Source: a virus. Taken from it: DNA of 64,000 nucleotides. The position numbers and the translations under genes were made by a program. Every line of letters begins with the position of its first letter. The stretch's first letter is position 1. The DNA is taken from the IMG/VR virus record IMGVR_UViG_3300025000_002059, positions 1 through 64,000 of that record; one strand, written 5' to 3'. A model generated the notes under the pieces. The model saw only the letters and a program-made list of their open reading frames with translations. It was not told the DNA's origin and made no database searches. Shown piece by piece: positions 11,121 to 48,086 of this stretch.

Positions 11121-12035
11121 ATGCCCACTAAATTTATGAATGAAATAGAAACAAATAACCCAATAGAAGTTAAAAATGTTGCCATTGAGCCACCATTAGA
11201 TTTAGAAAAAGTGACAAAGGTTAAAGATGATGTTCTGGAATTTAAACGATATTCAGATAGCGTTATGATCTTAGGATTTGCACCAGATAGTCTTAAATGG
11301 GCACCATTGGACGCTAAAAATATTGATATTTGGGGACTTAATGAACTTTATATGGATAAGCCAAAAATTGCGATTCGTGCGACTGCATGGTTTCAGCTCC
11401 ATGGATATGAGCCACCAACAGTGAGAGATGTTAATCAAGTTAGAAATTTATCATTCCTAAAATGCCCAGTGCTTATGTGGAGAAAACATCCCAATATCCA
11501 AAATTCAATTGAATATCCATTACAAGAAATCATGGAAGAATTTGACATCTATGGCGAAGACATGGCACTGGATCAACCTGATATTAGGCAGAGAGTTTAT
11601 TTCACCAATACGATTTCATGGATGATTGCACTAGCCATTAAAATGGGATACAAGGACATTCAAATTTATGGAGTCAATATGGCACAAGATCAGGAGTTCC
11701 AGCATCAAAGACCAAGCTGCGAATTTTTCCTTGGCTGGGCAAGAGGGAAAGGTATCAAGATATATAAGCCGCCAGTATCGGATTTGCTTTTATCGCCTTT
11801 CCTTTATGGATACGATGATGCAACGGCGTACATGCAGAAACTAGAAGCGCGAAGAAAGGAACTAATAGAGCGGGTCGAGAATACGCGCAGGCAAAGGATA
11901 GGCATGCAAGAGCAGGCTAATCAACAATTACAAGCAGAACAAAATCTATTAGGGGCACTTCATGATGTTGAATACATTATGAGACTTGGAAATCCTGTAA
12001 AGCCGGATAAGTTTTCTAAGCCAGCGAAAGGATGA
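11121..12035 (+). CDS. Sialyltransferase/MAF-fold-like glycosyltransferase candidate with C-terminal coiled coil
   Basis: VMILGFAP, IWGLN and TISWMIALAIKMGYKDIQIYGVNM resemble the GT42/GT29/Maf 'A..lGyk.I.l.G.D' motif. Confidence 0.5.
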   Translation: MPTKFMNEIETNNPIEVKNVAIEPPLDLEKVTKVKDDVLEFKRYSDSVMILGFAPDSLKWAPLDAKNIDIWGLNELYMDKPKIAIRATAWFQLHGYEPPTVRDVNQVRNLSFLKCPVLMWRKHPNIQNSIEYPLQEIMEEFDIYGEDMALDQPDIRQRVYFTNTISWMIALAIKMGYKDIQIYGVNMAQDQEFQHQRPSCEFFLGWARGKGIKIYKPPVSDLLLSPFLYGYDDATAYMQKLEARRKELIERVENTRRQRIGMQEQANQQLQAEQNLLGALHDVEYIMRLGNPVKPDKFSKPAKG

Positions 12036-41205: not shown

Positions 41206-41501
41206 TGCTAGTTAATGGAACTCCGGCTATTGCAGATATTAAGAGTCAGTGTTCAATTATTCCCGGATTTGAATTTAACTACATCGCTTACAAGGGGAAA
41301 GTATTGTGGAGCACGGTATCGGCATCGCTTGATGATTATTTCATTTATCTTTATGACGGACCAAATTATAAAAATGGGTGGGATCCATATACGGTAGCCT
41401 GCGTAGATGAACACGGTGATCTGTTTTACTACGGTCGCTGGACGAAATTAAAAAATGCACTTGCATGGCTTGCGGATCCAAACATGCCAGAAAGGGACTA
41501 A
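41202..41501 (+). CDS. Hypothetical protein
   Basis: Translationally coupled ORF. Confidence 0.45.
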   Translation: MMLVNGTPAIADIKSQCSIIPGFEFNYIAYKGKVLWSTVSASLDDYFIYLYDGPNYKNGWDPYTVACVDEHGDLFYYGRWTKLKNALAWLADPNMPERD

Positions 41502-41506
41502 AGCAA

Positions 41507-42268
41507 TTGGAGACACTAGCGGTAATAAACCAAAAGGGCGGCGTAGCCAAAACTACAACGAGCGTGAATATGGCGGCCATAATAGCCGCCATGGGATTCA
41601 AGACATTACTTATTGATGTGGATCCGCAAGCTAATCTTTCCCAATCCTTGGGCATTGTTGCCTTTGATATGGGAACACCTAATCTTTTCGAGGATCCGAA
41701 AATAACACTTAGCAAGTGCGTTAATGAAACAAGCATAACGAAATTATCCATTATTCCATCGGACCTATCACTAGCACAAGTTGAATGGGAACTTTTGAAA
41801 ACATTTAAAGGCACCAATACTTCTATTCTGCGAGACAAGATCAAGGCAAGTGAGGAAGAATTTGATTATTGCATTATCGACTGCCCGCCAAGCTTAGGAA
41901 TTTTCAGCCTTAATGCGCTCATTGCAGCGGACCGTGTGCTTATCCCGGTTGGTCTTGATCCGTTCGGATTGATTGGAATAAAGTATCTAGTGAGCACGAT
42001 CACTGATATCAGAATGAGTATAAACAAGCATCTCAAAATTCTGGGCATTGCACGGACCATGTGGGATATGCGGCAGAGACTTGGACGAGAAATCAGCGAA
42101 AGTATGGAAAAGGATTATCCGGGAAAAGTCCTTGAGACGATTATAAAAATGAATGTAAGCGTCAAGGAAAGTGCTGTTGCCCAAATGCCACTGGTCATTT
42201 ATGAGCCAAATGCTCCGGCTGCGCTGCAATACATTCAATTAACGAATGAAGTGTTACAGAGATGGTGA
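41507..42268 (+). CDS. parA: ParA/Soj partition ATPase
   Basis: NQKGGVAKTT, LLIDVDPQANL and IIDCPPSLG. Confidence 0.93.
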   Translation: METLAVINQKGGVAKTTTSVNMAAIIAAMGFKTLLIDVDPQANLSQSLGIVAFDMGTPNLFEDPKITLSKCVNETSITKLSIIPSDLSLAQVEWELLKTFKGTNTSILRDKIKASEEEFDYCIIDCPPSLGIFSLNALIAADRVLIPVGLDPFGLIGIKYLVSTITDIRMSINKHLKILGIARTMWDMRQRLGREISESMEKDYPGKVLETIIKMNVSVKESAVAQMPLVIYEPNAPAALQYIQLTNEVLQRW

Positions 42269-42543
42269 GAAAACAGGGTAGGCCAAATATTCAAGCAATG
42301 CTGGAAGGAATCGATCTGGATAATAAGGAAGTACAGGAAGAAAAGCCAGATAAGTCAGAGGTAGAAGCGATAGCTGAACCGGACTTAAATGAAAAACTAA
42401 AGCGATGCTATGTAGTAACAGGATTTCATCTTGAAAAAATAATGCTTCTAAAGACCAAAAAATACAGAAAATATGATATGAGCGAAATTGTCTGTATGGC
42501 GATTGATTCATTTTTTGAAAAAGAAATGAACGGAGAGAAGTAA
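42262..42543 (+). CDS. Small partition adaptor (type Ib ParG/omega-like)
   Basis: 93 aa overlapping parA; disordered N-terminus and C-terminal RHH-like MSEIV.MAID.FF. Confidence 0.6.
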   Translation: MVRKQGRPNIQAMLEGIDLDNKEVQEEKPDKSEVEAIAEPDLNEKLKRCYVVTGFHLEKIMLLKTKKYRKYDMSEIVCMAIDSFFEKEMNGEK

Positions 42544-42549
42544 TACAAT

Positions 42550-43308
42550 ATGATTGAAGAAATAGATGACCAAATATTTACCATGACAAGTGATCTCTCG
42601 GATGAAGAACTGGTCGATTTTGCAGCTGGGATATTTAAGAGCAATTGGAAAACATCATACGATTACCAGAAAACGGATCCTATTATATTTCAAAGCTTGC
42701 CGATCGATGGGAAAATACTTAAGCATACCGATTTTTTGTCTTCGGCTGTTTATATATCAGAACTAACACAAAAGGCATTATCCTATAGATGGAATGAGAT
42801 AGGAGGTCTAGCCGGGAAAGAACTGAAGGAGTGGGATGCCAATGGCGGCCTTTGTATTTATCTATCCATTTTGCATTTTTGTTTACTGCTGGAAAGCAAA
42901 GCCGTAAAAGAGAATGAACTATGCTTAGTCCAAGGATTTTATAGGCATCCAACACACGGAATACTCAGTATATTCTCAAATCTGGGAACTCAATGCGGAG
43001 TTCATGCCTTTATAAGCGTTCAGGGAGCGGTTGTTGATTTTTCGATACAGCAAGAAGCATCAACGTTCGAATTTGGAGAAAAAGAATTCATTATTGGCGA
43101 TATCCCAGATGAGATGGAGATGGTCGGCTGGACAGAAGGAAAGCATTTAGTCAAGCAATATGCGCGTGAGATAGCCCGGAGCAGCGGACTTAATTATTTT
43201 GAATGGATTGAACAGCACAAAATCAATTCATATAAACTTGCAAGCAAAGAACTTAACAAAGAGCTTGTAAGGCTTAAAAGATTATATAAAAGTTTGGAGG
43301 ATGAATGA
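42550..43308 (+). CDS. Hypothetical protein (possible papain/transglutaminase-like fold)
   Basis: GLC, VHAF and VVD could form a Cys-His-Asp triad; 3 bp upstream of the tas-like gene. Confidence 0.4.
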   Translation: MIEEIDDQIFTMTSDLSDEELVDFAAGIFKSNWKTSYDYQKTDPIIFQSLPIDGKILKHTDFLSSAVYISELTQKALSYRWNEIGGLAGKELKEWDANGGLCIYLSILHFCLLLESKAVKENELCLVQGFYRHPTHGILSIFSNLGTQCGVHAFISVQGAVVDFSIQQEASTFEFGEKEFIIGDIPDEMEMVGWTEGKHLVKQYAREIARSSGLNYFEWIEQHKINSYKLASKELNKELVRLKRLYKSLEDE

Positions 43309-43311
43309 GCG

Positions 43312-44367
43312 ATGGCTAGGAAAAAGAATGAAGAAGAAGTCACCCTAACCAATCAGGAAATGATTCAAAAAGAAGAGCGCCATAGAAAAGATTTAGAAAA
43401 TAAACTAAAGGCATCGGAAGCATCAGCGGAAGATCAGAAACAATTTACTCCCTTGGTCAAACTTACTAAGGATTTAAGAAGCGCAAGCCGGACATTGAAT
43501 CCACAAGAAGCCCGGTATCTAGTGGACAGGTACTACCAAATCCAACAATACCGGACCAGCGCCAAGAATCAGATTAGAGCATCGGAAAGCGAAGAACCAA
43601 ATGAAGTTATTGTCTGGTTTGCAGAGAACTTTGAGGAACTGGAGAAGAACATAAAAAAGGCGCTGGATGCTTATACGAGTAGTCATCCGGTCGGAGCTTG
43701 GGCCAAATCGGTGATCGGCGTAGGTCCGACATTCGCAGCCGGGCTTCTAGCGCACATTGATGCGAAGAAAGCACCAACAGCCGGAGCCGTGTGGAGTTAC
43801 GCAGGATATAATCCAAGTGTTGAATGGTTAAAAGGTCAGAAGCGTCCATGGAATGCTGATTTAAAAAAACTATGTTATCTCATAGGTGAATCATTTGTAA
43901 AGGTTTCCAATAATCCTAAAGATATCTATGGTAAATTATATCGCCAAAGAAAAGATCAGGAGATAGCGAAGAATATAGCGGGAGAATTTGCGGAACAAGC
44001 AATATCAAAGCTGGAGAAATTCAAGATAGGTAAAGATACTGATGCTTACATATGGTATGCAGGATGTCTGACTGAAGATAAAGCCAGAGCAATTCTTCTG
44101 GGTGAAAAATCCGGATCAGCCAAAAGTCTAGCGGGAGAAAAGGATTCTGGGATTCGTATGCTTCCACCAGCACATATCAACGAGCGGTCCAAGCGATATG
44201 CTGTTAAAATATTCCTAGCCCATTTTCATGAGGTCTTATTTGAATATGAATTTGGGACCAAGCCACCAAATCCATATGCTATCTCAATCCTGGGACATGC
44301 ACATAAGCTGGAAGTTCCAAACTATGAAGTATTTAAAAAAGCGATGGAAGAAGATCCGTCACTATAG
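43312..44367 (+). CDS. TasA-like Nop-domain RNA-binding protein (IS110 C-terminal-related; no RuvC or HNH domain)
   Basis: Coiled coil, then SVIGVGP..AAGLLA.I, AVWSYAGY, WN..LK, YGKLY..RK and H...RSKRYAVKIFL; no DEDD domain; TIGR-like array begins at its stop codon. Confidence 0.8.
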   Translation: MARKKNEEEVTLTNQEMIQKEERHRKDLENKLKASEASAEDQKQFTPLVKLTKDLRSASRTLNPQEARYLVDRYYQIQQYRTSAKNQIRASESEEPNEVIVWFAENFEELEKNIKKALDAYTSSHPVGAWAKSVIGVGPTFAAGLLAHIDAKKAPTAGAVWSYAGYNPSVEWLKGQKRPWNADLKKLCYLIGESFVKVSNNPKDIYGKLYRQRKDQEIAKNIAGEFAEQAISKLEKFKIGKDTDAYIWYAGCLTEDKARAILLGEKSGSAKSLAGEKDSGIRMLPPAHINERSKRYAVKIFLAHFHEVLFEYEFGTKPPNPYAISILGHAHKLEVPNYEVFKKAMEEDPSL

Positions 44368-45107
44368 CCAAGTTACTTTGATTTTAAACAAAGCCATTGA
44401 GCGAACCATCAGACAAGAGAGTATCAACAATAGAAGAGTGAGCCAACAAGCGTGAGCTAATTGCATCCCATAAAAGCGAGCCACTAACCATGAATTATGC
44501 AACGAAAGAAAGCGAGCCATAGCAACAGATTACCCCATCTCGACGAGAGCGAGCCAATGGTCTATGAAAGCAGAATTGACCATCAAACAAGAGTGAACCG
44601 TGTGCAAAGATTGTATCAATTAGGAGAAGTGAGTCATTAGATTAGAATAGCACCATATCCGCAAAGCGAGCCGTTAGATCAGAAATTTATTTTATTCATT
44701 CCCATTGAGTGAGCCAAGAGCCAAGGTATACGAAAGCACCAACAACAACGAGCGAGTCATCCGATATGAAATTAGATACAAATGCGTTGAGCGATCCAAA
44801 ATGAATTGTAGCGAAACAAAGCGAACCATGGGTATGGAGAAATACCATTTATCTCCGAGTGAACCAAAAAATTAGAATAAATCGCCAAAGTAGAGTGAGC
44901 CATATGAAATAGATTAAATCACACTCTAAGAGCGAGCCAAGCTAACTTAATATAAAATGAACGAACCAGAATGCTTGATTGGGACAAAAATAACGAGTGA
45001 GCCACTAAAGGGAATTATAATATTTAATCAAAAAATGCAATGAGCGAAACAAAATATTTTGATCGAACCATTATAAAGGAGATATTCCGGGGATAACGAG
45101 TGAGTCA
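44366..45107 (+). ncRNA. TIGR-like dual-repeat array, block 1a (about 20 units)
   Basis: Example: AACCA-tcagacaa-GAGAGTATCA-acaatagaa-GAGTG|AGCCA-acaagcgt-GAGCTAATTGCA-tcccataa-AAGCG|AGCCA; period about 36 nt. Confidence 0.85.
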
Positions 45108-45118
45108 TGCAGGAAAGC

Positions 45119-45402
45119 GTGATGGGATGTTGGCTTAGAAGCAGCCATGGCTGGAAGGCTGATTGCTTTATGCAATCCATCTAAGGAGTGGGGCGATGGC
45201 TATTTGTGACTTGATTGTTTTTCCACATTATTAGCAATCTGAACCCGATGAGGGAAAATGAATGTGGTAGTGTTACGATGATACCGATGCATTTGTAGTG
45301 ACAAGGTAACATAAAAGCTGCAAATGAAGGAAAGCGTATAGCTTGGGAGTTGCTTTAGAGTTACACTTGGTTATCCCTTTTGGCGTAATAGCACACCATC
45401 AC
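45119..45402 (+). ncRNA. Structured RNA mimicking 23S rRNA H43/H44 (L11-binding GTPase centre)
   Basis: GGATGTTGGCTTAGAAGCAGCCA (45125-45147), CATCTAAGGAGT (45178-45189) and GCGTAATAGCACAC (45383-45396), closed by GTGATGG/CCATCAC. Confidence 0.7.
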
Positions 45403-45404
45403 AT

Positions 45405-46251
45405 GAGTCATGCGGAATGATTGAACGAAATAGTGAGTGAACCATCAATAATGACCGGAACATTGTGTCAGAGTGAGCCACGATATAAGAATAGCAACAT
45501 TAATAGTTGGAGCGAACCAATCAAGCCGAAAATTAACATTCCCTATGAGTGAGTCAGGTATATTTATGAAAAATATGAACGAGTCGAAGGAAGTAAGGGT
45601 ACCAATCTCATAGAGCGAGCCATAAGGAATAATGGCAACATCACAGGAAAGCGAACCACTAATAGCGAGTTACATCATTATACGAGAGTGAACCGTCAGA
45701 AGCGAAACTAAGTATCATATATTCAGAGTGAATCGGGATATTGGAGAGCACCACACATACTGAGTGAATCAGGACTATGGAAAGCAGCAGATAAGCCGAG
45801 TGAGCCGAATAATGGGATAGCACCACGCTGGTTAAGCGAGCCATTGAAGGAAATAGGATCAGAAATGCAGAGCGAGCCGCAGGATGTAAAAGCACAATAA
45901 AAAGAGAGCGAGCCAGACCAACCGAAAGCAGTATTGAGCGAGAGCGAGCCAGAGGAAAAAGATTAATTCATTGCAGGACAACGAGCCATAACTACAGATT
46001 AACGACAAGATTATAAGAGCGAACCAAAATCACGCTTAAATAAAATTGAAACATTAGCGAGTGAGTCATAGGACTTGATTGAATCACCCCATCGGAGCGA
46101 TCCATATTAAGCGAGAATAACCAGCGTAGGTTGAGTGAGCCAAATGGAAGCGAGAGTACCAATTGCATAGAGTGAGCCAGAACTGGTGATTAAAATCATT
46201 AATGCGAGAGCGAACCATGGCAAGAGAGGACCACAAATATAGAGTGATTCA
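45405..46251 (+). ncRNA. TIGR-like array, block 1b (about 23 units by length)
   Basis: Example: AGCCA-aatggaagc-GAGAGTACCA-attgcata-GAGTG|AGCCA. Confidence 0.85.
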
Positions 46252-46268
46252 AAAGCGAGGAATTATCG

Positions 46269-46553
46269 ATGAGAGATTTAATCAGTTATGATGAGATGCT
46301 AGAAAACAAGGATAAGCTAAAAACCATATTCCTCGATTTCAAGGCACGGTATTATGCTTTGGGCAAGAAGCAGAATGGAAAATTTAAAACGAGTGATCTT
46401 GACCGATTAATCCGGGAGACGATCGCAGAATTAAAAGGCAAAGAAAAACTTATTGCCGAAGGATTTCTGGAATTCGTGCTGGGATTTTTATTCAACAGCT
46501 CGTGGGATTCTACGAAGGCTTTTAATTCTGTAGATAAAATGTTTAACTGGTAG
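46269..46553 (+). CDS. Hypothetical protein embedded between array blocks
   Basis: GAGG RBS; flanked by TIGR-like repeats. Confidence 0.6.
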   Translation: MRDLISYDEMLENKDKLKTIFLDFKARYYALGKKQNGKFKTSDLDRLIRETIAELKGKEKLIAEGFLEFVLGFLFNSSWDSTKAFNSVDKMFNW

Positions 46554-46561
46554 ATAAATTT

Positions 46562-46992
46562 AGCCAAAACAGATGATAGTATCACGGCATCCAAGCGAAC
46601 CATTGACTATCGCCGGAAAGCGAGCCAATTCACACGACTAAAAACAAGATACTGAAGCGAACCAGAGGAAAAGACTATTTCATTACAGGAAAGTGAGCCG
46701 GACCAATTGATAAATACATTAAATGAGAGTGAGCCACGGTTAGGGACAATTTCAATTATTAGAAGCGAGTCAAACAGATAAGATTTCCATTTAAAGAGAG
46801 CGATCCATTTCAGATGACAGTAACAGCCTTTACGAGTGAGCCAGAAAATAGGATAGCATCATTATGCGAAAGCGAGCCAAGTGCATGAAGATATAAACCA
46901 TTAAACGAGATCGAACCAGTAGACAAGGAAAGTATCATGATCATAAAGTGAGCCAAACACCATGATTAGTAACATTATGGACAAGCGGACTA
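46562..46992 (+). ncRNA. TIGR-like array, block 2 (about 12 units)
   Basis: Same edge and loop repeats, e.g. AGCCA-aaacagat-GATAGTATCA-cggcatcc-AAGCG|AACCA. Confidence 0.85.
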
Positions 46993-47016
46993 ATACACCC
47001 TTGGGAGGTGGAACGA

Positions 47017-47454
47017 TTGGACCACGAAATATCATACCCAGAAAAGAAATGTCCCGGATGCGGAAATGATAATCTACTGGATGGACCGCGAGGTGGACTA
47101 TCTCAAAATGTCTTATGCCCGGAATGCCAAAGAGAATGGAACTATGGACCATTTGGGTATGAAGAAATCAGCCCGGCACGAACATACTTATACCGAGTTG
47201 TGTCTCCAAAACTTGATCTGCGGATCATCCCAGTAGGATGCAAGCCGGGATGCTGTGGGGAAACATATCCATGCATTGATGAGGTAGCCATGATTATAGA
47301 ACAGGGCAATCTTGCCTTTATGATTCACGGCGAGCACGTTAAGGAGCAGTTAGAGAAACTAGAATACAGAATTGATGTAACGAGTCATAACAACATACCG
47401 ATTGGAATGTATATATCTGAAAAGGGATCAAAAAGCGTGTACGAAAGATTTTAG
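47017..47454 (+). CDS. Zinc-ribbon protein embedded between array blocks
   Basis: CPGCG..LLDGPRGGLSQNVLCPEC; GGAGG RBS. Confidence 0.6.
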   Translation: MDHEISYPEKKCPGCGNDNLLDGPRGGLSQNVLCPECQREWNYGPFGYEEISPARTYLYRVVSPKLDLRIIPVGCKPGCCGETYPCIDEVAMIIEQGNLAFMIHGEHVKEQLEKLEYRIDVTSHNNIPIGMYISEKGSKSVYERF

Positions 47455-47672
47455 CCAGCACATGAGAAAATCCAGAGATCGTGAGCGAATCAATTGATGA
47501 AAAAAGCAACATTACTCCGGAGTGAACCGATTGAAATGATGATCCATTGACCAAGAGTGAGCCAATATCTATGAGCCACCCAATTTAAAGTAGCGAGCCA
47601 TCCCAAAGGATTTTTCAATTCCACGGAAGCGAGCCATTATAAGGCGATATTTCAGTCCACGGGAGCGATCCA
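47453..47672 (+). ncRNA. TIGR-like array, block 3 (about 6 units)
   Basis: Starts at the TAG of the upstream ORF; same repeats. Confidence 0.8.
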
Positions 47673-47711
47673 ATTCACCAGTCTAATATTTCTTGGAGTG
47701 AAAATATTTTT

Positions 47712-48086
47712 ATGGATAGACTGCGAAATGAGCGAAAGGCCAACGGTTTATGTGCTCAATGTGGAACTAAACTTGATAGGATTGGGAGATATTGCAAAAA
47801 ATGCAATACTTCAGGGAATATTAATAAGCACAAACGTTGCCTAAAGCTTTATGCAATCGGTTTATGTACTACTTGCGCTGAGCCATTAGACAGAGATGGT
47901 TGGTTTTGCTCAAGGTGTGCAAACAACTTAAAACTTAGGGCAAGAGTTAGAGACACAGAAAGAAGATTAAAAGGATTATGCGTTCAGTGTGGCGCTTGGG
48001 CAGATGGGTATTCCTATTGCCAACGCTGCAGGGATATGAGGATGGAGAGATATCACTCAAAGAAAAGGTCCATTCACCAAGAGTGA
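47712..48086 (+). CDS. Multi zinc-finger protein embedded between array blocks
   Basis: Three repeats of GLCxxC...CxxC. Confidence 0.7.
   Translation: MDRLRNERKANGLCAQCGTKLDRIGRYCKKCNTSGNINKHKRCLKLYAIGLCTTCAEPLDRDGWFCSRCANNLKLRARVRDTERRLKGLCVQCGAWADGYSYCQRCRDMRMERYHSKKRSIHQE

What the first reader, a model, noticed from the sequence alone, without database searches (positions are those of the whole stretch)
45101..45413. 23S rRNA GTPase-centre (L11-binding H43/H44) mimic RNA inserted in the TIGR array
Seen: GGATGTTGGCTTAGAAGCAGCCA, then after a 30-nt hairpin insert CATCTAAGGAGT, then after a ~193-nt structured insert GCGTAATAGCACAC. The whole is closed by a non-rRNA helix GTGATGG/CCATCAC and flanked by a 10-bp direct repeat TGAGTCATGC (45101 and 45404) that includes the edge repeat. 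Known: bacterial 23S nt ~1055-1104 read GGAUGUUGGCUUAGAAGCAGCCA.CAUUUAAAGA..GCGUAAUAGCUCAC, the uL11/thiostrepton site. The differences here are compensatory: the 1082-1086 pair is C-G instead of U-A (the known eukaryote-type covariation) and 1090-1101 is U-A. That argues for selection on the fold rather than a decayed rRNA fragment. Inference: a phage decoy or scaffold RNA that binds uL11/stalk proteins, affecting translation factors or L11-dependent RelA activation, possibly excised from the array transcript by Tas processing at the flanking edge repeats.
Basis: partly seen in the sequence, partly recalled or inferred. Interest (0 to 1): 0.9.

Follow-up and report, generated by a model that had tools for sequence, protein, structure and literature searches.

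The report
Phage ribosome-mimic RNA inside guide-RNA array
An uncultured 88-kb groundwater phage carries, in the middle of a TIGR guide-RNA array, a 284-base non-coding RNA whose ends rebuild the piece of 23S ribosomal RNA that binds protein uL11 and meets the translation GTPases; it belongs to a widespread phage RNA family that I could not find described.

Summary
Window 45119-45402 (+) is a 284-nt RNA gene. A 7-bp closing helix encloses a copy of the 23S GTPase-associated centre (GAC; H43/H44). 25-26 nt are identical to E. coli 23S, where chance expects 0.

It is not a decayed rRNA scrap. I collected 45 distinct homologues: IMG/VR phages, cultured jumbo phages such as XacN1, GAP32 and CBB, and 4 bacterial or MAG contigs. 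All share the closing helix, U1090/A1101 and a large domain inserted in H44. Covariation is strong: 92.8% of cells paired against 69.6% shuffled, and 17 pairs change on both sides.

Loop bases that in rRNA serve ligand contact rather than folding (A1070, A1095) are also kept.

Most members lie beside same-strand tRNA genes. This phage clade has no tRNA genes, and 3 of the 45 members sit in TIGR arrays instead.

The family is absent from Rfam 15, and seven literature searches found no description.

Function is inferred, not shown. The RNA is most likely an off-ribosome imitation of the GAC that binds host uL11 or another GAC-recognising factor, released from the array transcript by tigRNA processing.

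The 10-bp flanking repeat is real but is not conserved in relatives.

This scan has already reported the same family many times on other DNA, once in a TIGR array.

The parts
43312..44367 (+). tas gene: 351-aa Tas-like (Nop/IS110-C-terminal) protein with no recognised nuclease domain
   Evidence: PDB sequence search: 9mty_A E 1.4e-12; TasH entries (21kl and others) E 7e-8. PHROG 4285 E 5e-48. Weak Pfam Transposase_20 hit.
44368..46260 (+). TIGR-type array: edge repeats AG(C/T)GA(G/A)(C/T)CA, mostly 36-38 nt apart, interrupted by the RNA
   Evidence: Unit table and repeat families. The + strand reads UG...CCA in each edge repeat, as described for tigRNA in PMC12045711 (passages).
45099..45107 (+). 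Last complete edge repeat (AGTGAGTCA) before the RNA. Expected 3' boundary of the preceding tigRNA, and so the likely 5' release site.
   Evidence: The cleavage position is inferred from PMC12045711.
45101..45110 (+). Direct repeat copy 1 (TGAGTCATGC)
   Evidence: With GGAA after a 1-nt gap, both flanks look like two copies of the start of one array unit.
45119..45125 (+). P1 5' strand (GTGATGG), the closing helix, positionally the tip of H42
   Evidence: Pairs with 45396-45402. All 10 of 10 tested P1 pairs covary across 31 members.
45126..45148 (+). G1056, H43 5' strand, 9-nt loop UUAGAAGCA (A1067 = 45137) and upper 3' strand to U1078
   Evidence: 25-26 nt identical to E. coli 23S. G1059 and U1060 are invariant in 31 of 31 although the search patterns did not fix them.
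45149..45177 (+). Subfamily-specific insertion in the H43 3' strand. Hairpin 1 is 45149-45160 (GGAA loop). Hairpin 2 is 45161-45177.
   Evidence: Conserved in all 3 subfamily members, with a G-C to A-U compensatory change in hairpin 2 and a GGAA to GAAA loop change in hairpin 1. L021 and L029 carry unrelated hairpins at the same site.
45178..45189 (+). C1079-U1081 (H43 lower 3' strand), C1082...G1086 pair, G1087, A1088, G1089, U1090
   Evidence: 1058/1080 covaries: UA 16, GC 10, AU 4. 1082/1086: UA 19, CG 10. A1088 is A in 31 of 31 although the pattern allowed G.
45190..45378 (+). Inserted domain in H44, closed by its own helix (45190-45193 with 45375-45378). Internal helices: 45223-45229/45261-45267, 45244-45246/45252-45254, 45274-45277/45335-45338, 45290-45299/45317-45326.
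   Evidence: The closing helix covaries in 4 of 4 pairs across 31 members. Internal helices have 9 pairs with both-sided changes among the 3 subfamily members.
45379..45382 (+). UUUG linker between the inserted domain and upper H44
   Evidence: Columns 322-324 of A1 are at least 90% T and column 325 (G) is invariant. Part of this was fixed by the search pattern.
45383..45395 (+). Upper H44 hairpin GC-GUAAUA-GC (A1095 = 45387), then A1101, C1102, A1103
   Evidence: In the loop-free scan the loop is GUAAUA in 11, GUAACA in 2 and other in 2 of 15 distinct members.
45396..45402 (+). P1 3' strand (CCATCAC)
45404..45413 (+). Direct repeat copy 2 (TGAGTCATGC). Its first 7 nt are a half edge repeat that starts the next array unit, and so the likely 3' release site.
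   Evidence: Not conserved in L015 or L067.

Best explanation
Window 45119-45402 (+) encodes a 284-nt non-coding RNA. It belongs to a widespread, apparently undescribed phage RNA family that reproduces the autonomous GTPase-associated-centre domain of 23S rRNA (tip of H42, H43, H44; E. coli 1051-1108). The domain is closed by the RNA's own helix and carries a large extra domain inserted between 1090 and 1091.

Shown here: the family exists, the fold covaries, the ligand-facing loop bases are conserved, and the genomic context is as described.

Inferred:
(1) The RNA is co-transcribed with tas and the TIGR array.
(2) It is freed as the stretch between two tigRNA processing sites: the edge repeat at 45099 and the half edge repeat at 45403. 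In other phages it would be freed from tRNA operons.
(3) Off the ribosome it adopts the GAC tertiary fold and is recognised by whatever recognises the ribosomal GAC. The most likely partner is host uL11, which binds the isolated 58-nt rRNA domain. The RNA would then titrate uL11 or present a uL11-RNA surface, and so alter factor- or RelA-dependent responses during infection.

I put family membership and GAC mimicry at about 0.95, release from the array transcript at about 0.6, and uL11 as the partner at about 0.45. The confidence given for this field (0.55) is for the statement as a whole.
For: - Match to rRNA: 25-26 nt exactly match 23S rRNA, against 0 chance matches in shuffles.
- Homologues: XacN1 has a free-standing copy with the same closing helix followed by a terminator-like hairpin and T run. 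Pattern scans gave 38 IMG/VR loci, then more, for 45 distinct members including the window (one search counts 44 others).
- Covariation over 31 members: 92.8% of cells paired against 69.6% shuffled; covariation score 0.607 against 0.167 (0 of 500 shuffles reach it); slid controls at most 0.19; P1 covaries in 10 of 10 pairs; 1058/1080 and 1082/1086 covary.
- Bases not fixed by the search patterns are invariant: G1059 and U1060. A1088 is A in 31 of 31 where G was allowed.
- Loop-free scans: G1071, C1072 and A1073 kept in 21 of 21; A1067 in 19 of 21; A1070 in 20 of 21; A1095 in 14 of 15.
- PMC6239185 (passages) states that A1070 and A1095 are invariant in rRNA yet make no tertiary contacts (A1095 contacts cofactors). 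It also states that 1061 is not conserved, and 1061 is U, A, C or G in the family. The RNA therefore keeps the ligand-facing surface as well as the fold.
- Strand: G-U pairs occur in P1, and the nearest tRNA is on the same strand in 23 of 23 loci that hold a tRNA.
- Purifying selection: the RNA is 90.7% identical to its counterpart in G002, while the adjacent tas DNA is 73.5% identical. In G003 only the RNA matches (79.8%) and its flanks do not.
- Context: there is no + strand promoter-like or terminator-like site between tas and the array end. tigRNAs are cut in the middle of edge repeats in a Tas-dependent way (PMC12045711 passages).
- No phage uL11 gene in 6 of 6 phage records tested, so any uL11 partner would be the host's.
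Against: - No expression data and no binding data exist for any member.
- The insertions are a concern for the uL11 model. Here 29 nt are inserted in the H43 3' strand at 1078/1079 and 193 nt in H44. From memory, the H43 strand lies near the uL11 C-terminal-domain footprint, so this subfamily may bind uL11 poorly. I could not check this against coordinates.
- A1067 is G in 2 of 21 members and A1070 is G in L067, so the loop surface is not absolutely fixed.
- A closely related complete phage (G001, Tas 79% identical) lacks the RNA, so it is dispensable.
- Only 1 of 11 Tas-related loci has it within 6 kb, so it has no general link to TIGR function.
- No conserved neighbouring protein points to a partner: 136 of 203 flanking ORFs were scanned and the top family, TerD, appeared in 5.
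Confidence: 0.55

Rival explanations
1. The RNA is a decoy substrate or sponge for something that attacks the ribosomal GAC: a toxin or defence effector that modifies H43/H44, or a thiopeptide antibiotic. It soaks up the attack so that ribosomes keep working for the phage. This parallels the idea, recalled from the literature, that phage tRNA genes offset tRNA-targeting defences.
For: - GAC-directed toxins exist. Tre23 ADP-ribosylates 23S rRNA within 1095-1098 of H44, and thiostrepton, nosiheptide and micrococcin bind H43/H44 (PMC8661411 abstract and passages).
- The exposed bases A1067 and A1095 are conserved in the family.
- Members sit in tRNA arrays.
- RNA-repair-type enzymes occur sporadically nearby: an annotated 2'-5' RNA ligase next to the XacN1 copy, and single RNA ligase, CCA-adding-type and PTH2 hits.
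Against: - No anti-phage defence system is known to me that targets the GAC. Tre23 is an interbacterial T6SS toxin.
- A stoichiometric decoy would have to compete with tens of thousands of ribosomes.
- The repair-enzyme neighbours are single cases among the 136 ORFs scanned.
- The hosts are very diverse: Xanthomonas, enterobacteria, Pseudomonas, Paenibacillus, and groundwater and gut phages. That favours a universal host partner.
Confidence: 0.17
2. The RNA is a platform that directly binds translational GTPases or RelA, with or without uL11. It would act as a free-standing imitation of the factor-binding site that diverts EF-G, EF-Tu, IF2, RF3 or RelA from ribosomes.
For: - Bases conserved in rRNA for cofactor contact rather than folding are conserved here (with PMC6239185).
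That would complete a factor-binding site.
Against: - I found no sarcin-ricin-like or other 23S-like segment in this window's insert. blastn-short of 42 inserts against a full E. coli 23S gave nothing below E 0.07, and the window's best hit was E 1.6.
- The inserted domains are heterogeneous between subfamilies.
- From memory, factors bind the isolated GAC only weakly.
Confidence: 0.13
3. The RNA is a TIGR-specific accessory: a processing cofactor or scaffold for Tas, or a tracr-like partner.
For: - It is embedded in TIGR arrays in 3 related phages, on the array's strand.
- The tigRNA maturation nuclease and any cofactor are unknown (PMC12045711 discussion passage).
Against: - 42 of 45 distinct members are not in such arrays.
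- G001 and G004 have tas and arrays but no RNA.
- 10 of 11 Tas loci lack it within 6 kb.
- TIGR arrays were processed in E. coli without any such RNA.
Confidence: 0.03
4. The region is a non-functional, decaying fragment of a host 23S rRNA gene captured by the phage or by array turnover.
For: It has 25-26 nt of exact identity to rRNA and lies in a recombination-prone repeat array.
Against: - 45 distinct homologues share derived features absent from E. coli 23S: A1101, an insert after 1090 with its own covarying helix and a UUU(G) linker, and a covarying closing helix.
- The RNA is more conserved than the neighbouring tas gene.
- No other LSU sequence is present in the phage.
Confidence: 0.02

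Closest known systems
GTPase-associated centre of bacterial 23S rRNA (tip of H42, H43, H44; E. coli 1051-1108; the autonomous uL11- and thiostrepton-binding domain)
   Same: Nearly all core bases and pairs are shared:
- the H43 stem and its UUAGAAGCA loop;
- the H44 GUAAUA loop;
- U1060 and A1088, and G1071 and C1072;
- a Watson-Crick 1082/1086 pair;
- a variable 1061.

The rRNA domain folds on its own and binds L11 only when folded (PMC6239185 and PMC1802607 passages).
   Different: - It is a stand-alone 284-nt phage gene and not part of a 2.9-kb rRNA. No LSU hit was found.
- It is closed by a 7-bp helix unrelated in sequence to H42.
- A1101 pairs with U1090.
- A 193-nt domain is inserted in H44 and 29 nt in H43.
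The phage GAC-mimic RNA family itself (e.g. the unannotated copies in Xanthomonas phage XacN1, Cronobacter phage GAP32 and Pectobacterium phage CBB); I found no name for it in print
   Same: It shares the closing helix, the core, U1090/A1101, the insert position and the UUU(G) linker.
   Different: - This subfamily (3 phages) sits in TIGR arrays rather than beside tRNA genes or under its own terminator.
- It has two extra hairpins in H43.
- Its insert is the second longest class seen here: 192-193 nt, in a range of 111-194.
rRNA-mimicking leaders of ribosomal-protein operons (e.g. the L10 leader, Rfam RF00557; recalled)
   Same: It is an RNA outside the ribosome that imitates an r-protein binding site on rRNA.
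   Different: - Those leaders act in cis, upstream of r-protein genes, and imitate only a few features.
- This RNA is a near-complete copy, phage-borne, not next to any r-protein gene, and has no Rfam match.
TIGR-Tas arrays (Faure et al. 2025, PMC12045711)
   Same: The host locus fits: a Tas homologue followed by units of about 36 nt with edge repeats reading UG...CCA.
   Different: - The RNA is not a tigRNA. It is 284 nt, has no loop repeat and no dual spacers.
- The passages I read do not mention non-guide RNAs inside arrays.

Membership tests
23S rRNA GTPase-associated centre fold (structural mimicry, not an rRNA gene) | H43: lower stem 1057-1059/1079-1081, upper stem 1062-1064/1074-1076, and a 9-nt loop with A1067 | tested here: met
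   Read in the sequence. 1058/1080 covaries: UA 16, GC 10, AU 4 of 31. With the loop left free, it is UUAGAAGCA in 13 of 21 distinct members and A1067 is kept in 19 of 21.
23S rRNA GTPase-associated centre fold (structural mimicry, not an rRNA gene) | H44 hairpin GC-GUAAUA-GC with A1095, and the G1087-C1102 pair | tested here: met
   With the loop left free: GUAAUA 11, GUAACA 2, GUAAAA 1 and GUGACA 1 of 15, so A1095 is kept in 14 of 15. The stem is split by the inserted domain.
23S rRNA GTPase-associated centre fold (structural mimicry, not an rRNA gene) | Bases of the tertiary fold: the U1060-A1088 pair, G1071/C1072 for the triples, and a Watson-Crick 1082/1086 pair (the roles are recalled from solved structures) | tested here: met
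   U1060 is present in 31 of 31 although unfixed. A1088 is A in 31 of 31 where G was allowed. G1071, C1072 and A1073 are kept in 21 of 21. 1082/1086: UA 19, CG 10, other 2 of 31. The tertiary fold itself cannot be tested with these tools.
23S rRNA gene (LSU_rRNA_bacteria, RF02541) | Part of a full-length LSU rRNA | tested here: not met
   No Rfam hit in the window or in the 87,959-bp phage record. The core motif occurs once.
Phage GAC-mimic RNA family (defined by this and earlier scan reports; unnamed) | A covarying closing helix directly outside 1056/1103 | tested here: met
   The helix is 45119-45125 with 45396-45402. All 10 of 10 tested pairs covary, and the inner 7 pairs are paired in 28-31 of 31 members each.
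Phage GAC-mimic RNA family (defined by this and earlier scan reports; unnamed) | A U1090-A1101 pair, and an extra domain inserted after 1090, closed by its own helix and followed by UUU(G) | tested here: met
   U-A is present in 30 of 31 members. The insert helix covaries in 4 of 4 pairs. Inserts are 111-194 nt. My scans required an insert of 100-210 nt, so members without an insert were not sampled.
Phage GAC-mimic RNA family (defined by this and earlier scan reports; unnamed) | Phage-borne, within or beside operons of processed stable RNAs, on the same strand | tested here: met
   A same-strand tRNA lies within 100 nt in 13 of 44 members and within 500 nt in 19 of 44. The nearest tRNA is on the same strand in 23 of 23 loci that hold one. 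Here the RNA lies in a TIGR array on the array's strand.
tigRNA unit of a TIGR array | A unit of about 36 nt: half edge repeat, spacer A, loop repeat, spacer B, half edge repeat | tested here: not met
   304 nt separate the edge repeat at 45099 from the half edge repeat at 45403, and there is no loop repeat or spacers between them. The surrounding array does meet the definition.
Ribosomal-protein leader or known phage ncRNA in Rfam 15 | A match to a curated covariance model, and a position upstream of an r-protein gene | tested here: not met
   There were 0 gathering-level hits, and only 2 chance-level hits at E 3.8 and 9.2. In 17 other member loci only tRNAs and one unrelated group I intron matched. 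No r-protein gene is nearby.

The most novel reading that the evidence does not exclude
Phages carry a mobile 'ribosome-part' RNA cassette: a faithful copy of the uL11/GTPase-factor docking domain of 23S rRNA. They plug it into whatever processed stable-RNA operon they own, which is a tRNA array in big phages and a TIGR guide-RNA array in this tRNA-less clade. They then use it in trans to capture host uL11 or another GAC reader, and so switch off uL11-dependent stress signalling (the stringent response) or blunt GAC-directed attack. This would be the first virus-encoded mimic of a ribosomal functional centre. It would also be the first evidence that TIGR arrays express cargo RNAs other than guides.
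Probability: 0.35. Interest if true: 0.9.

Novelty: categorically new. Interest (0 to 1): 0.8.

Why it matters
If the RNA works as its sequence implies, phages imitate a functional centre of the ribosome with RNA. That would be a mode of host takeover, or of counter-defence, not described before.

The family is easy to test.
- It occurs in cultured phages of tractable hosts: GAP32 on Cronobacter, CBB on Pectobacterium, XacN1 on Xanthomonas, pf16 on Pseudomonas putida, and Serratia phage BF.
- The 58-nt GAC-uL11 system already has decades of biophysics behind it.

This copy adds two points of its own.
- TIGR arrays can carry and presumably express a non-guide RNA. That bears on the open question of how pre-tigRNA is processed.
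- The cassette has moved between arrays in sister phages, which shows that it behaves as an accessory module.

Tried and rejected
- **Covariance model.** I used regular expressions, pattern scans and the count of structure pairs instead.
- **Sequencing runs.** No RNA holder was listed. The 10 runs that hold the stretch or part of it, from 4 studies, are all DNA runs of groundwater, sediment or freshwater metagenomes.
- **Thermodynamic folding.** Folding of the single sequence (z = -1.95) and RNAalifold did not recover the native GAC pairs. I replaced those pairs by hand with the rRNA pairing before counting.
- **Sarcin-ricin-loop copy.** I did not find one here: no insert matched any other part of E. 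coli 23S beyond chance. A 9-mer in the window's insert equals part of H44, but at E 1.6, which I treat as chance.
- **Conserved protein partner next to the RNA.** None found. I scanned 136 of the 203 ORFs of at least 90 aa within 2.5 kb, from 42 loci. The other 67 were dropped for the 150-sequence limit and as short overlapping frames.
- **'Array' near L029.** It is a coding-type hexamer repeat, not a guide array.
- **Metagenome scan for more subfamily members.** It re-found only the 86,734-bp contig.
- **The 252-aa ORF upstream of tas.** No Pfam, PHROG or PDB match, so 'TasParB' could not be tested.
- **Match to the host's own 23S.** I did not test whether each mimic resembles its host's 23S, because I had no way to address named genera.
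- **Literature.** Searches returned no paper describing such an RNA. For those searches I saw listings only. PMC10690425 (find) reports that no rRNA predictions overlapped its candidate RNAs. The XacN1 paper (find) has no mention of rRNA, 23S or non-coding RNA. Supplements were closed, so tables of candidate RNAs or of TIGR arrays may list this element without my seeing it.
- **First submission.** This call hands in the same report with that field added.
Full report
**1.

- The 23-mer GGATGTTGGCTTAGAAGCAGCCA (45125-45147) is the only match in the window with up to 3 mismatches. None is expected in 100 dinucleotide-preserving shuffles.
- Window 45124-45148 is 100% identical to the 23S rRNA genes of all 5426 complete E. 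coli genomes searched. I read the E. coli sequence in L040.
- E. coli position numbers below are the usual convention, recalled from memory and anchored on that sequence.
- The region holds no ORF of 60 aa or more, no tRNA and no Rfam 15 family, at gathering level or up to E = 10.
- The whole 87,959-bp phage record has no LSU rRNA and only this one copy of the core motif.

**2. It is a member of a large phage RNA family**

How the members were found:
- A blastn of the region against GenBank phages hit an unannotated intergenic stretch of Xanthomonas jumbo phage XacN1.
- Read out, that stretch has the same closing helix, the same core with a G1058-C1080 pair instead of U-A, an insert at the same place in H44, and a hairpin plus T run directly after the closing helix.
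- Three gapped pattern scans of IMG/VR gave 38 loci holding 29 distinct sequences.
- Further scans and searches raised the total to 44 distinct members besides the window.
- A 60-nt query from one member found the element in cultured phages: GAP32, CBB, XaC1, XbC2, XacN1, Serratia BF, Yersinia fHe-Yen9-03/04, six Erwinia pEa_SNUABM phages, Kaldavass, Pseudomonas pf16, Milchi, Astolliot and UNO-G1W1, Aeromonas 4_4572, and Paenibacillus Pd_22F. The same search also hit true 23S contaminant records.
- One scan of species-representative bacterial genomes gave only 4 contigs: a Clostridiaceae bacterium, Flintibacter muris, a Ca. Limenecus MAG and a Parcubacteria MAG.

Structure across the family, tested on a 31-member alignment with the rRNA pairing plus the closing and insert helices:
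- 92.8% of cells pair, against 69.6% in shuffles.
- The covariation score is 0.607 against 0.167 (0 of 500 shuffles reach it), and at most 0.19 when partners are slid.
- All 10 closing-helix pairs covary, as do all 4 insert-helix pairs.
- 1058/1080 is UA 16, GC 10, AU 4. 1082/1086 is UA 19, CG 10.
- U1090-A1101 is present in 30 of 31.
- The scans fixed the loop sequences, so I ran two scans that left each loop free. In the 1065-1073 loop, G1071, C1072 and A1073 are kept in 21 of 21 distinct members, A1070 in 20 of 21 and A1067 in 19 of 21. In the 1093-1098 loop, A1095 is kept in 14 of 15.
- G1059 and U1060, never fixed by a pattern, are invariant. A1088 is always A although G was allowed.
- Position 1061 varies freely, as it does in rRNA (PMC6239185 passages).
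- That paper also says A1070 and A1095 are invariant in rRNA without making tertiary contacts, A1095 touching cofactors. Their conservation here suggests selection for the ligand-facing surface as well as the fold.

**3. Anatomy of this copy**

| Element | Window coordinates |
|---|---|
| P1 closing helix | 45119-45125 with 45396-45402 |
| H43 5' strand, loop and upper 3' strand | 45126-45148 |
| Insertion in H43 3' strand, 29 nt | 45149-45177 |
| Hairpin 1 of that insertion (GGAA loop) | 45149-45160 |
| Hairpin 2 of that insertion | 45161-45177 |
| 1079-1090 | 45178-45189 |
| Inserted domain | 45190-45378 |
| UUUG linker | 45379-45382 |
| Upper H44 hairpin, then 1101-1103 | 45383-45395 |

- Two relatives carry the same architecture: G002 (= L015/L056/L066/L074), 91% identical, and G003 (L067), 80% identical.
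- On the three sequences, a curated structure is 96.5% paired, with 13 pairs changed on both sides against 5.3 in shuffles and at most 2 when slid.
- Those 13 include three pairs in helix 45223-45229/45261-45267 and four in 45290-45299/45317-45326.
- That structure was derived from these same sequences, which inflates the contrast.
- L021 and L029 have unrelated hairpins at the same H43 site, so the site tolerates insertions.
- I found no sarcin-ricin-like or other 23S-like segment in this insert.

**4. Context**

- The RNA lies in a TIGR-type array. Edge repeats AG(C/T)GA(G/A)(C/T)CA recur mostly every 36-38 nt from 44400 to 46243.
- The array follows a 351-aa protein that matches Tas structures in the PDB (9mty_A E 1.4e-12; TasH E 7e-8) and PHROG 4285.
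- The + strand reads UG...CCA in each edge repeat, as reported for tigRNA (PMC12045711).
- No promoter-like or terminator-like site on the + strand separates tas, the array and the RNA.
- The RNA starts 11 nt after the edge repeat at 45099 and ends 1 nt before a half edge repeat at 45404.
- According to PMC12045711 (passages), tigRNAs run from mid edge repeat to mid edge repeat. Tas is required for processing but does not catalyse it, and the host RNase is unknown.
- Release of the RNA as the piece between two processing sites is therefore plausible, but it is inferred.
Both flanks look like copies of the start of one array unit: 10 of 10 bases, then GGAA after a 1-nt gap. The homologous unit is intact two units downstream of the RNA in L015.
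- L015 and L067 have no such repeat around their RNA.

**5. The cassette is accessory and moves**

- In G002 the RNA lies about 290 nt after tas. Here it lies about 750 nt after tas.
- In G003 it lies in a different array about 10 kb from tas, with non-homologous flanks.
- G001 (100% complete, Tas 79% identical) and G004 (76% complete) lack it.
- Of 11 Tas-related viral loci, only 1 has it within 6 kb.
- The RNA is better conserved (90.7%) than the adjacent tas DNA (73.5%).

Placement across the family:
- 13 of 44 members have a same-strand tRNA within 100 nt and 19 of 44 within 500 nt.
- The nearest tRNA is on the same strand in 23 of 23 loci that hold one. 21 of 44 fetched loci hold no tRNA.
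- This phage and its four relatives have no tRNA gene at all (0 of 5 records).
- My reading is that the RNA rides in whatever processed stable-RNA operon a phage owns.

**6. Function**

Nothing here shows transcription or binding.

What points to a host partner:
- uL11 is the one protein known to bind this isolated rRNA domain tightly, and it needs only the tertiary fold (PMC6239185 and PMC1802607 passages).
- No phage uL11 gene exists in 6 of 6 records tested.
- No shared neighbouring protein suggests another partner.

I therefore favour an off-ribosome imitation of the GAC that engages host uL11, or another reader of that surface. Possible consequences are effects on factor function or on uL11-dependent RelA activation; the latter link is recalled knowledge.

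Rivals:
- a decoy for GAC-directed toxins or thiopeptides, since Tre23 modifies H44 at 1095-1098 (PMC8661411);
- a factor-binding platform;
- a TIGR accessory RNA, which its distribution contradicts;
- a dead rRNA fragment, which the covariation contradicts.

The inserts at 1078/1079 and 1090/1091 could hinder uL11 binding in this subfamily. I could not check this against coordinates.

**7. Novelty**

- The family is absent from Rfam 15, both for this copy and for 17 other member loci.
- Seven full-text searches and targeted reads found no description.
- The earlier notes of this scan, which are AI-written and unchecked, report the same family on many other genomes and once in a TIGR array of another 88-kb phage. 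My analysis reproduces those claims independently.
- It also adds four points: the tRNA-less clade, the movement between arrays, the absence from a complete sister phage, and the lack of a sarcin-ricin copy in this member.

Noticed in passing
window 41465-44367: tas is preceded by a ParA-type ATPase gene (41465-42268; AAA_31 E 1.5e-50) and a 252-aa ORF (42550-43308) with no Pfam, PHROG or PDB match. PMC12045711 mentions TasA loci operonised with ParB-like genes, so the 252-aa protein might be such a partner. Sequence searches could not show this.
   Followed up: partly
window 44400-46260 compared with L056 7050-9400: The tas-proximal arrays of the two sister phages share only a few homologous units (for example window 44409-44479 with L056 7251-7320). 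About 17 units lie between that unit and the RNA here, and none in L056. Units are therefore gained or lost quickly while the RNA stays.
   Followed up: partly
window 46269-48086: Small ORFs are interleaved with further array blocks on the same strand (46269-46553; 47008-47454; and 47712-48086, the last a double zinc ribbon, PF12773 E 4e-8). The arrays seem to carry protein-coding cargo as well as the RNA.
   Followed up: no
L002, L004, L008, L017, L023, L024, L027, L028, L030, L054 (inserted domains): Many members outside this subfamily share a motif near the 3' end of the insert. It is a 3-bp hairpin capped by a GNRA or UAAC tetraloop, flanked by CACC and UAAGG, and its closing pair covaries (G-C, G-U, U-A, A-U). 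It is absent from the window's insert. Its role is unknown.
   Followed up: no
L018 2334-2589: A group I intron (Rfam RF00028, 72 bits) lies about 2.7 kb upstream of the GAC-mimic RNA in this 204-kb phage contig. It is unrelated to the finding.
   Followed up: no
L031 11050-11373: A phage-encoded tmRNA (tag DEYLPLAA) lies directly beside the GAC-mimic RNA (11400-11552) on the same strand, inside a tRNA array. This is another translation-related RNA in the same operon.
   Followed up: no
L001 2334-2984 (XacN1 ORF260): The gene directly upstream of the XacN1 copy is annotated as a 2'-5' RNA ligase. Single RNA ligase, CCA-adding-type and PTH2 genes occur near other members. These neighbours are sporadic, not a conserved association.
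   Followed up: partly
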